Source: Eledone cirrhosa (Eukaryota). From it: a stretch of 64,000 bases of DNA. Positions 34,545-45,032 of this stretch are shown here, in pieces. How positions within the stretch are numbered: the first letter of the stretch is position 1; each line of letters opens with the position of its first letter. The notes under the pieces are model-generated. The model was given only the letters and a program-made list of their open reading frames with translations. It did no database searches and had not been told where the DNA came from. The translations under genes and the position numbers were made by a program. The DNA is taken from NCBI GenBank assembly GCA_964016885.1, contig OZ024744.1, forward strand, positions 116,932,001 to 116,996,000, written 5' to 3'.

Positions 34545-34688
34545 TGTGTGTGGCTTAGTAGTTACAGCTTGCAATTGTGAGGTTGTGAGTTCGATTCTCG
34601 GACTGGGTGATGTGTTGTGTCCTTGAGCAAGACACTTTATTTCACATTGCTCCAGTTTACTCAGCTGTAGAAATGAGATGATAGGAAC
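34545..34688 (+). mobile_element. SINE family B head (tRNA-like + CORE-like), running into the 85-bp satellite
   Basis: TGGCTTAGTAG A-box, GAGTTCGATTC B-box, TGTGTCCTTGAGCAAGACACTTT...CAGCTGTAGAAATGAG. Confidence 0.85.
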
Positions 34689-35329
34689 TGGTACCAAGCA
34701 GTATCACACATTACCTTTCCCTTGGACAACATCATATATAATATATATAGTATATATATAGTTGTGATACCACTGGTACCAAGCTGTATCACACATTACC
34801 TTTCCCTTGGACAACATCATATATAATATATATATAGTATATATATAGTTGTGATGTCACTGGTACCAAGCTGTATCAGACATTACCTTTCCCTTGGACA
34901 ACATCATATATAATATATATAGTATATATATAGTTGTGATACCACTGGTACCAAGCTGTATCACACATTACCTTTCCCTTGGACAACATCATATATAATA
35001 TATATAGTATATATATAGTTGTGATGTCACTGGTACCAAGCTGTATCAGACATTACCTGTCCCTTGGACAACATCATATATAATATATATATAGTATATA
35101 TATAGTTGTGATGTCACTGGTACCAAGCTGTATCAGACATTACCTTTCCCTTGGACAACATCATATATAATATATATATAGTATATATATAGTTGTGATG
35201 TCACTGGTACCAAGCTGTATCAGACATTACCTTTCCCTTGGACAACATCATATATAATATATATAGTATATATATAGTTGTGATGTCACTGGTACCAAGC
35301 TGTATCAGACATTACCTTTCCTTTGGACT
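34689..35329. repeat. 85-bp SINE-derived satellite, first array (about 7.5 copies)
   Basis: AGTTGTGATGTCACTGGTACCAAGCTGTATCAGACATTACCTTTCCCTTGGACAACATC plus a TA tract. Confidence 0.95.
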
Positions 35330-37495
35330 AGGTTCACTCTCAGTCCTCTTGCTTCCAACTGCTGTTTCAATAACCAGAATTTATTCTCTAGCTCCTCTAC
35401 TGATTCTGCTATAAGAACCAAATCGTCAGCATAGCGAAGTTCCCATGGACAGCCAATCTTAAACTCCTCTGTATGGCTTGGATAACTATAATGAACAAGA
35501 GCGGGCTGAGGACTGAACTCTGATGTACTCCTACTTATATCTGGAATTCCTCACTAAACTCCATTCCTACCCTGACTTTACTGACAGCCCCTCTGTACAA
35601 AGTTTCCACTGTCCTCACAAGCCATTCCTCAACACATATTTTCCTTAGGGACCACCACATGACAGATCGGGGTACCCTATCAAAGGCCTTCTCTAGGTCA
35701 ACATAGTGGCTTATTCTTCTCTAAGAACCTCTCTTGCAATTGTCTCACCAAGAAGAGGGCATCTGTTGTACCTTTCCCAGGCACAAAATCAAACTGCATC
35801 TCATCTAGTTTGACCCTTTCTCTAATTAGTTGTGCTAATATCCTTTCTGCCACTTTCATAACCTGATCCATCAGTTTTATACCCCTATAATTGCTCCTCT
35901 CCAGAGCATCCCCTTTACCTTTGTAGCAATTTATGAGAATACTGCTGCACCAGTCTTTGGGTATGACACCACCATATATAGCCTGATTGATGATGCTTGC
36001 AACCAGTTTAGTGCCTACGTCCCCTGATGCCTTCAGCATCTCAGCAACTATCCCCGACAGTCCAGCAGCCTTACCATTTTTCATTTCCTTAATCGCCTCT
36101 TGGACCCTATATTCGTCAATCTCAATAGCTGATCCCTCTGTCGGATCTACTGAGGGTAATTTCTCTCTCTCTCATTCGTTATCCACATTCATTAGTCTCT
36201 CATAATGACATTTCCAGCCCCCCTTTTTCTGATCATTCGTGACACTAAGTACACCGGCATCATTCCGGACACATTTATCTCCAACAATATCCTGATTTGC
36301 ATAGACAAACTGCCTTGCAATATGGAACACTGCACGCCTCTGATCTTCCCATCACAGAACATTGGCAAACCTCCTACTCTCAGCCTCCCTGCATGCTAAA
36401 TAGACCACATCTAGCTTCTCTCTTAGCGGCTGTATATCCTTCTCTACTCCCACCCTTTTTCCAAGCCTTCCATGCTAGTCTTTTGTCTCTAATGGCCTTA
36501 TCTATTGTGCTGTTCTACCACCAGGTTACTCTCTGTCTGGTTGGAGCTCCAGCCACAAGTTTCATCAGTAGCCTGCAGTAAGTTGTCACGTAAGAACTTC
36601 CAGTTATCATCTATGTCATACGACTCTAAATCGTCTTCTTTTTCGTCATACACATCTTGAAGGGCTTTCATAAATTTGTATTTTAGTGAAAGGTCTTTTA
36701 GCTTCCAGACCTTTCTTCTCCACACCTTCCTGTATGTCTCATTCCAGCTCTTGCTTACTGAGATATCACTAACGACTAACCTATGCTCTGGGGTACATTC
36801 TTCCCCAGGGTGTGCCTTGGTATTAGACACTATCTGCCTGTCCCGCTGCCTAACTAATAAAAAGTCAATCTGGCTTATGTGCTCGCCTGATTTGTAGGTT
36901 ATTAGGTGGTTGGCAGGTTTCTGGAAGTTAGTGTTGCAAATGGTCAGTGTACTTGCATCACAAAATTCAAGAAGTCTCACTACTTCTTCATTTCTTGAGC
37001 CGTAACCGTGCCCACCATGTACCCCAGTGTAACCATCCTGGAGCTGTCCAACCTGACCATTGAAGTCCTCTGCTAGCTTAACGATGTCTCCGTCCTCTGT
37101 CATTGCAGCTGTTTGTAATAGCAGTCTTTCTCTTCTTTACCTAGGCAGCTGTTTGTAATAGTCTTTCTCTTCTCTGCCTAGGCCTGCTTGGGGAGCATAG
37201 GCAGAGATGATTGTCAGTAGTCTCCTGCCTACAACTAATCTAAGCTTAATTATTCGATTAACTCAAACTACCTCTATTGTCTTATTGATCCACCTGTCAG
37301 CCAGTAATATGCCCACCCCACCTAACCCATCATCATTACCTACCCAGAAAAGCTTATAACTAAGATGTTTGCTTGCAATTAGTCTTGCAGAGGCACCTCT
37401 CCATCTCACATTTTGCACGCAGCACACATCCACATGCCTTCTCTCCAGCATTTCTACCTGTGAGAGTGCCAACATTAAGAGTTGCAACCCTGAGA
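35330..37495 (-). mobile_element. Decayed RTE LINE (APE + RT, 3'-truncated)
   Basis: Minus-strand ORFs: DVCCVQNVRWRG, EDFNGQVG, SQIDFLL, KGKGDALERSNYRGIKL, and RYADD at ~35425. Confidence 0.93.
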
Positions 37496-44000: not shown

Positions 44001-44894
44001 AGCTGTATCAGACATTACCTTTCTCTTGGACAACATCATATATAATATATATAGTATATATATAGTTGTGATGTCACTGGTACCAAGCTGTATCAGACAT
44101 TACCTTTCCCTTGGACAACATCATATATAATATATATAGTATATATATAGTTGTGATGTAACTGGTACCAAGCTGTATCAGACATTACCTTTCTCTTGGA
44201 CAACATCATATATATAATATATATATAGTATATATATAGTTGTGATGTCACTGGTACCAAGCTGTATCAGACATTACCTTTCCCTTGGACAACATCATAT
44301 ATAATATATATAGTATATATATAGTTGTGATGTCACTGGTACCAAGCTGTATCAGACATTACCTTTCCCTTGGACAACATCATATATAATATATATAGTA
44401 TATATATAGTTGTGATGTCACTGGTACCAAGCTGTATCAGACATTACCTTTCCCTTGGACAACATCATATATAATATATATAGTATCTATATAGTTGTGA
44501 TGTCACTGGTACCAAGCGGTATCAGACATTACCTTTCTCTTGGACAACATCATATATAATATATATATAGTATATATATAGTTGTGGTGTCACTGGTACC
44601 AAGCTGTATCAGACATTACCTTTCTCTTGGATAACATCATATATAATATATATAGTATATATATAGTTGTGATGTCACTGGTACCAAGCTGTATCAGACA
44701 TTACCTTTCTCTTGGACAACATCATATATAATATATATATAGTATATATATAGTTGGATGTCACTGGTACCAAGCTGTATCAGACATTACCTTTCCCTTG
44801 GACAACATCATATATAATATATATAGTATATATATAGTTGTGATGTCACTGGTACCAAGCTGTATCAGACATTACCTTTCCCTTGGATAACATC
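41030..44894. repeat. 85-bp SINE-derived satellite, main array (about 45 copies)
   Basis: Period of about 83-89 bp; length variation is mostly in the TA tract. Confidence 0.98.
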
Positions 44895-45032
44895 AGTGGT
44901 ATGGAGAGAGGGGAGAGACTAGTATACATGGGTGACTGCTGGTCTTCCACAAACAACCTTGCCTGACTTGTGCCTTGGAGGGGGAACTTTCTAGGTACAA
45001 ATTCCATGATGATTTCTGACTGAAAGAGATCT
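44895..45032 (+). mobile_element. SINE 3' body continuing from the last satellite unit
   Basis: GGTATGGAGAGAGGGGAG...GACTGCTGGTCTTCCACAAACAACCTTGCCTGACTTGTGCC...CTTTCTAGG resembles the 3' half of a common octopus SINE (from recall). Confidence 0.7.

What the first reader, a model, noticed from the sequence alone, without database searches (positions are those of the whole stretch)
34545..45032. A SINE apparently stretched over 10.5 kb by satellite amplification of its internal segment
Seen: a tRNA/CORE-like SINE head (34545-34688) runs directly into an 85-bp array. Same-orientation units recur at 38527, ~40085 and 41030-44894, and the last unit continues without a TA tract into a SINE-like 3' body (44895-45032). 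Each unit is a ~59-bp segment plus a ~26-bp TA tract. From recall, the ~59-bp segment is the part of an octopus SINE lying between this head and this tail. Inference: one SINE seeded a satellite in situ, and an RTE, an RTE tail and two Helitrons later split the array.
Basis: partly seen in the sequence, partly recalled or inferred. Interest (0 to 1): 0.75.

Follow-up and report, generated by a model that had tools for sequence, protein, structure and literature searches.

The report
SINE satellite hopping between neighbouring copies
An 85-base repeat made from the middle of a short jumping element (SINE) occurs 55 times here and, almost letter for letter, at eleven other places, ten of them within 7 Mb on the same chromosome and mostly inside older unrelated copies of the element, so it likely spreads from copy to neighbouring copy during DNA repair rather than having grown once at one spot.

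Summary
In detail: 55 units (58-bp SINE segment plus ~27-bp TA spacer) lie between a tRNA-like head and a SINE tail. Head, unit and tail are collinear in ordinary single-unit copies, and a LINE, a LINE tail and two Helitron-like elements split the array. The 'one SINE, one in-situ satellite' reading is only partly right. The same unit and spacer form nine more arrays (7-333 units) and two single units; all 147 exact junction matches lie at C28 115.1-122.3 Mb or on one unplaced contig. Their units are 97-100% identical and share sub-variants, while most host tails are 74-85% alike and flanks are not collinear. Terminal units and tails are mosaics, and a short patch from a sister SINE family sits at this array's head junction. 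Best reading: local, homology-guided DNA copying (ectopic gene conversion or circle re-entry) into old SINE copies, then slippage growth; this locus may be a donor. Other spacer-bearing copies occur genome-wide. The kind is known (reptile SINE-derived satellites; Drosophila Rsp-like invading 1.688), and earlier notes of this scan proposed the same spread for SINE-head arrays on other DNA of this genome. No orthologous locus or reads could be checked.

The parts
34535..34677 (+). tRNA-like SINE head; family-A alleles in its 5' part
   Evidence: 84-86% to single-unit copy L007; family-A base at 34578, 34579, 34593, 34600, 34619 where family B has it in 0-2 of 22; L007 head hits Rfam tRNA at 26.3 bits, E 0.016, below the gathering score 29
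34678..34691 (+). Patch matching the body start of sister SINE family B (may begin as far left as 34620); joins the array at a 5-base stretch shared by both families
   Evidence: contigs of run X18/X19 laid up to 34686-34691 continue into the family-B body
34687..35327 (+). Left array block, 8 units, the last one cut short
35328..38493 (-). Decayed RTE-like LINE with its 5' region; 3' part and tail lost at the junction with unit 8 (1-base overlap)
   Evidence: 91-94% to relatives over 1.7 kb, 5' region matches L177 to 38493; weak RVT_1 and Exo_endo_phos hits below cut-off; 4.3% from the majority of 6 relatives
38494..38587 (+). Spacer remnant and isolated unit (1 difference from the commonest unit)
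38588..38781 (-). Short RTE-type 3' tail fragment flanked by a 6-base direct repeat
38797..40057 (+). Helitron-like element 1 (5' TC, 3' hairpin + CTAG, inserted between A and T), with an internal 84-bp tandem repeat
40058..40153 (+). Spacer and isolated unit 40087-40144 (4 differences from the commonest unit)
40154..41028 (-). Helitron-like element 2, tail-to-tail with element 1, 69-93% identical to it in blocks (an independent insertion)
41030..44895 (+). Main array block, 45 units
44896..45033 (+). Family-A SINE 3' body; 99% identical to the tail at C28:117.159 Mb (L002)

Best explanation
This is one of twelve loci carrying the same 85-bp unit (SINE middle segment plus TA spacer), and the unit likely moved between neighbouring old SINE copies by homology-guided DNA copying during break repair (ectopic gene conversion, or re-entry of an excised circle), then likely grew at each site by slippage or unequal exchange. 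Shown: identical units and shared sub-variants in different SINE frames, mosaic ends, confinement to 7 Mb, later insertions into spacers. Inferred: the seed was a unit-spacer-unit SINE of a type found genome-wide; a break in or near a SINE copy invades a nearby array through shared head, unit or tail sequence and copies several units, sometimes with part of the tail; TA spacers attract LINE and Helitron insertions. This locus likely gave its 3' end to the copy at 117.16 Mb and took a short patch from a sister-family SINE; whether it is the birthplace is open (about 1 in 4). No function is implied.
For: All 147 exact 53-base junction matches are placed at C28 115.1-122.3 Mb or contig C1198, 0.24% of the genome, in both orientations. 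A 33-base diagnostic word: 358 of 365 in the cluster, 3 on C2/C9, 4 unplaced. Commonest units are 97-100% identical in 10 of 11 loci compared; tails have a median of 80% over 36 pairs, 74-85% apart from W/117.16 (99%) and the 117.77/118.95/119.47 trio (95-98%); heads 81-97% over 19 pairs; no flank pair is collinear from the junction. Sub-variants are shared across arrays: 44C>T in 8, 42T>A in 6, 41T>G in 5, and 41C and 43G each in the same 5, so multi-unit blocks moved. Host-type units or alleles remain at array ends at 115.61, 117.28, 117.77, 119.47 and 122.33 Mb. C1198 shares 4 rare changes with 118.95 in the first 18 bases of the tail but is 81% alike overall; no dispersed pair of 595 shares more than 1 in the first 32 bases or more than 3 in the whole tail. 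The head here is family A in its 5' part and family B at the junction.
Against: No orthologous or pre-conversion allele was seen: no run held half the words of the locus and no contig spanned it. The trio and the W/117.16 pair share tails up to the SINE's end, which RNA-templated copying would also give. Three loci (115.12, 117.16, C1198) have no head next to the array and look like 5'-truncated inserts in TA tracts. Related units and spacer occur near the start of C9, so confinement is not absolute. The junction hairpin that might cause breaks is not better than shuffles (z -0.8 to -1.7). Direction and order of transfers are not resolved. Raw reads of this individual were not available to confirm array junctions.
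Confidence: 0.65

Rival explanations
1. RNA route: an array-bearing SINE is transcribed and its cDNA inserts as 5'-truncated copies or replaces the 3' part of existing SINE copies.
For: Shared tails end at the SINE 3' end (117.77/118.95/119.47; W/117.16); headless loci begin in TA tracts, and 117.16 ends in the family's simple-repeat tail; the unit has no run of four T.
Against: Family copies are spread genome-wide (1,216 exact 20-base hits) yet these lie in 7 Mb; 115.61, 117.25, 122.33 and C1198 keep their own tails; 117.16 lacks the bases that follow the shared tract here.
Confidence: 0.15
2. One reading: one SINE copy seeded this satellite in place and nothing was exchanged with other loci.
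For: Collinear head, unit and tail; head mostly family A; no host-type old unit at either end here; isolated units (5 of 116 bases) and the inserted LINE (4.3%) give a similar age, so this array is not brand new and may be a source.
Against: Nine other arrays and two single units with the same unit, spacer and sub-variants; sister-family patch; tail twin at 117.16 Mb.
Confidence: 0.08
3. The arrays were carried to new places by segmental duplication of a block containing the SINE.
For: Clustering on one chromosome arm; three loci share tails.
Against: 1.5-kb flanks are not collinear from any junction, and heads and tails are far less alike than the units.
Confidence: 0.04
4. Assembly artefact: near-identical arrays were mis-joined or polished towards one sequence.
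For: No reads of this individual were checked; one array is 31 kb and one lies on an unplaced contig.
Against: Units keep private and locus-specific changes (mean 0.7-1.7 differences per 58 bp); most arrays are 0.6-4 kb; mis-joins would not create many distinct heads and tails next to the same unit.
Confidence: 0.05

Closest known systems
SINE-derived satellites (sSat1-3) of squamate reptiles, Vassetzky, Kosushkin and Ryskov 2023, PMC10702118 (parts 1-4 of 5 of the text read; supplements not read)
   Same: Tandem unit is a part of a tRNA-derived SINE, sometimes with extra bases of unknown origin; terminal units extend to a SINE end; many loci; high homogeneity within and between long arrays; alternating sub-variants.
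   Different: There, loci with both SINE ends are described as uncommon and spread is ascribed generally to unequal recombination and concerted evolution; the parts read do not map conversion tracts or a variant confined to one chromosome segment. Here the extra bases are a TA spacer and the cluster lies 14-21 Mb from the chromosome end.
Rsp-like satellite invading 1.688 clusters on the Drosophila simulans/mauritiana X, Sproul et al. 2020, PMC7403614 (abstract and 12 passages seen)
   Same: A young repeat spreads along one chromosome by entering older, abundant repeats; short shared stretches at junctions; interlocus gene conversion or circular DNA proposed and not separated.
   Different: There the landing sites are another satellite and the invader is unrelated to it; here the landing sites are dispersed SINE copies homologous to the unit itself, and the range is about 7 Mb.
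Octopus OR1 CORE-SINE (Ohshima and Okada 1994; seen only as a mention and reference in PMC4824008 passages)
   Different: No OR1 or CORE consensus was on hand, so identity with family A or B was not tested.
SVA VNTR of hominids (recalled, no call)
   Same: Internal tandem repeat of variable copy number inside a non-autonomous retroelement.
   Different: SVA arrays travel with their own head and tail by retrotransposition genome-wide; here identical arrays sit in different frames in one region.

Membership tests
tRNA-derived SINE (family A) | tRNA-like head with Pol III boxes | tested here: inconclusive
   L007 head aligns to the whole RF00005 model, 26.3 bits, E 0.016, below gathering 29; A- and B-box-like motifs read by eye
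tRNA-derived SINE (family A) | Short, dispersed, high copy | tested here: met
   about 340 bp monomers; 1,216 exact 20-base junction hits genome-wide
tRNA-derived SINE (family A) | Target-site duplications and simple-repeat 3' tail | tested here: met
   exact repeat of 8+ bases across the ends in 9 of 25 monomers against 1 of 25 shifted controls; none found at this locus; short tandem tail in several copies
tRNA-derived SINE (family A) | 3' end shared with a partner LINE | not tested
   no partner search was run
CORE-SINE / octopus OR1 | ~65-bp CORE domain after the head | not testable with these tools
   no Dfam, Repbase or SINEBase consensus available; papers gave none in text
SINE-derived satellite (sSat type) | Unit is a sub-part of a SINE, at least four middle monomers | tested here: met
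SINE-derived satellite (sSat type) | Terminal unit continues to a SINE end | tested here: met
   head at 5' and tail at 3'
SINE-derived satellite (sSat type) | Several loci, homogeneous within and between | tested here: met
   10 arrays, commonest units 98-100% alike
SINE-derived satellite (sSat type) | Tendency to subtelomeric position | tested here: inconclusive
   cluster at 115-122 Mb of a 136.5-Mb contig; related units 0.27-0.34 Mb from the start of C9
RTE-clade LINE (insert 35328-38493) | Endonuclease and RT domains in one frame; clade by RT phylogeny | tested here: inconclusive
Non-autonomous Helitron (two inserts) | 5' TC, 3' CTAG with nearby hairpin, insertion between A and T, no TSD | tested here: met
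   read directly at both elements; these features are recalled
Non-autonomous Helitron (two inserts) | Link to an autonomous Rep/helicase partner | not tested
   no search run

The most novel reading that the evidence does not exclude
A homing satellite: the unit-plus-TA-spacer makes its carrier break-prone and is copied with a bias into plain SINE copies that touch it in the nucleus, so it spreads like a protein-free homing element using some ten thousand dispersed SINEs as landing pads; the same drive would explain why spacer-bearing copies genome-wide share a spacer start (13 of 15) yet show no subfamily signature in head or tail, and each variant's territory would map 3D contacts.
Probability: 0.2. 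Interest if true: 0.72.

Novelty: new variant of a known kind. Interest (0 to 1): 0.44.

Why it matters
How a satellite colonises new loci is an open question; gene conversion and circular DNA are proposed but rarely caught with readable tracts. Here every landing site is an old SINE with its own mutations, so donors, recipients and tract ends can be read base by base, and the 7-Mb territory lets the distance limit of ectopic conversion be measured and compared with Hi-C. It also warns that SINE copies are mosaics, which confounds dating and subfamily calls. The locus itself has no sign of function, and SINE-derived arrays are common in this genome.

Tried and rejected
1) 'The head belongs wholly to sister family B' was my reading; rejected by diagnostic sites (log-odds -13.4; 0 of 18 B heads score that low; only a 14-72-bp patch is B-type). 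One other B-to-A switch at the same point exists among 7 other pattern hits (L189). 2) 'The 37780-38490 stretch is unique DNA, so the left block is a separate insertion': rejected, it is the LINE's own 5' region; a separately copied left block is not excluded. 3) Hairpin or cruciform at unit junctions as trigger: not above shuffles. 4) Spacer-bearing copies as a distinct subfamily: only 3 of 279 head and tail columns at p<0.01, about chance, and mean identities are equal (25 monomers, 15 multimers); an earlier test with 11 and 20 copies found none. 5) Target-site duplication here: none, uninformative. 6) Public runs: best share 0.29, no contig spans either end, so no orthologue. 7) Pfam at E 0.001: nothing. 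8) Literature: six searches listed no paper on SINE-derived satellites in cephalopods; subscription papers, including the 1994 octopus SINE paper, and all supplements were not seen and may bear on family names. 9) Earlier-findings search by sequence: nothing. Searches failed (time limit, script errors) and were rerun.

Full report
Observation. TRF reports 85-bp arrays at 34687-35328 and 41030-44895. blastn finds 55 units: 8, then single units at 38530 and 40087, then 45. Each is a 58-bp segment plus a TA spacer of 27 bp (29 of 51 short junctions) or 28-33 bp. The last unit runs straight into a 137-bp body. A genome search with last unit plus tail gave 40 scored places of 4,202 candidates at 84-98% over most of the query; in L007, L010, L011, L013, L016 and L017 head, one unit and tail are contiguous. 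The head of L007 aligns to the Rfam tRNA model just below the curated score. I call this SINE family A. An exact 20-base junction word occurs 1,216 times; at about 12% copy divergence that suggests on the order of ten thousand copies (my estimate).

The interruptions. 35328 to about 38493 is one decayed LINE on the minus strand, including a microsatellite-rich 5' region; RT and endonuclease hits are weak. Its 3' part is missing, and it meets unit 8 with one shared base, best read as a deletion after insertion. It is 4.3% from the majority of six close relatives; the two isolated units differ from the commonest unit at 5 of 116 bases, a similar figure. 38588-38781 is a short LINE tail with a 6-base duplication, and 38797-40057 and 40154-41028 are tail-to-tail Helitron-like elements, 69-93% alike in blocks, each inserted in a spacer. 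Similar insertions sit in spacers of the sister arrays at 117.28, 117.77, 118.95, 119.47 Mb and C1198.

The unit is not confined to this locus. The window is C28:116.93-117.00 Mb. An exact 53-base unit-spacer-unit junction occurs 147 times; all 147 were placed in arrays at C28 115.12 (10-11 units), 115.61 (20 young, 2 old), this locus, 117.25 (17), 117.77-117.80 (333), 117.96 (14), 118.95 (34), 119.47 (26), 122.33 (8) and unplaced contig C1198 (11). Single young units lie at 117.16 and 117.28. Of 365 hits to a 33-base diagnostic word, 358 are in these loci, 3 on C2 and C9, and 4 were not located. Seven of the twelve loci are on the plus strand and five on the minus.

The frames differ. For the 11 loci compared (117.96 was found later), commonest units are 97-100% identical in 10; the eleventh value came from the old unit at 117.28. 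Tails (9 loci, 36 pairs) have a median identity of 80%, heads (8 loci, 19 pairs with 40+ shared columns) 91%, and 1.5-kb flanks share only interior dispersed repeats. Sub-variants recur across arrays, so blocks of several units were copied. Ends are mosaic: old host-type units or alleles remain at five loci; 117.77, 118.95 and 119.47 share last unit and tail (8-9 rare changes) under different heads; C1198 shares four rare changes with 118.95 only at the start of the tail; this locus and 117.16 share unit and tail at 98-99%. Among 595 pairs of 35 dispersed copies none shares more than three rare tail changes. Because this tail ends in register with the family consensus while 117.16 switches to another ending, this locus is the likelier donor (inference).

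The head junction. After the head, 34678-34691 matches the body start of sister family B, which shares the head; most of the 29 best head hits continue that way, as do contigs of a public run. I first read the whole head as B. Diagnostic sites reject that: five sites from 34578 to 34619 carry the family-A base, present in 0-2 of 22 B heads. So a 14-72-bp B-type patch lies between an A-type head and the array, ending at a 5-base stretch that both families carry in nearly the same register. This is a further footprint of exchange between SINE copies.

The seed. Unit-spacer-unit copies with other spacers are widespread: 312 of 543 hits to a unit-end-plus-TA word lie outside the cluster regions counted (117.96 was not yet included), with independent arrays on C5, C10, C11 and C25. 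In a sample chosen only by the unit-tail junction, 1-2 of 30 carry a spacer (all 30 from the first 108 Mb of C1). The first spacer starts with a shared motif in 13 of 15 multimers, though part of that set was selected by a junction pattern, and multimers show no subfamily signature in head or tail.

Mechanism. Shown: identity of units across unlike frames, mosaic ends, regional confinement. Inferred: breaks in SINE copies are repaired from a nearby array through shared sequence, or circles excised from arrays re-enter by homology; arrays then expand by slippage or unequal exchange. These two DNA routes cannot be separated here. An RNA route explains shared tails and headless copies but not the 7-Mb confinement or loci that keep their own tails. 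A structural trigger was not supported. No orthologue or spanning read was obtainable, so direction and assembly accuracy remain untested.

Comparison. It meets the tested features of the reptile SINE-derived satellites (PMC10702118, parts 1-4 of 5 read) and works like the Rsp-like invasion of 1.688 clusters (PMC7403614, abstract and passages). CORE/OR1 membership could not be tested (PMC4824008 and PMC4758252, passages only). Six paper searches listed nothing on such satellites in cephalopods. Earlier notes of this scan describe many SINE-head arrays in this genome, and two propose the same copy-to-copy spread; my reading was written before seeing them, and I did not test their loci. Verdict: real, a new variant of a known kind, interest 0.44.

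Noticed in passing
window 50126-50513: 100-bp array (3.9 copies) whose unit resembles a SINE head with a TA-containing end.
   Followed up: no
window 56268-64000: 83-bp array of at least 93 copies running off the window; unit looks like a LINE 3' tail piece plus a CT tract (resemblance by eye).
   Followed up: no
window 17316-29964, 9757-12491, 53683-55305, 4063-4847, 13740-14115: Further arrays of 53/56, 77, 27, 25 and 105 bp; the 105-bp unit resembles the body of a third SINE type that shares this head.
   Followed up: no
L135-L163: At least three or four different bodies follow the same SINE head; the family-B body opens with an 11-bp perfect inverted repeat, and its start is followed by two different continuations.
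   Followed up: partly
window 38797-41028: Two related Helitron-like elements inserted tail-to-tail in adjacent spacers form a 2.2-kb imperfect inverted repeat around one unit.
   Followed up: partly
L005, L067, L132 (C9 0.27-0.34 Mb): A second local group of units and spacers close to the C28 variant near the start of another chromosome.
   Followed up: partly
L133 (C11 41.25 Mb), L122 (C5 33.22 Mb): Independent arrays of the same SINE segment with 109/147-bp and 73-bp spacers, 27 and 8 units.
   Followed up: partly
L189 (C3 29.54 Mb): A second family-B to family-A switch at the same 5-base point, in a monomer.
   Followed up: partly
L202-L204 (C1 25.9-26.8 Mb); L010/L011 (C23); C8 32.0-33.6 Mb: Neighbouring monomers with identical units, and a run of six spacer-junction hits within 1.6 Mb: possible further local exchange or segmental duplicates.
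   Followed up: no
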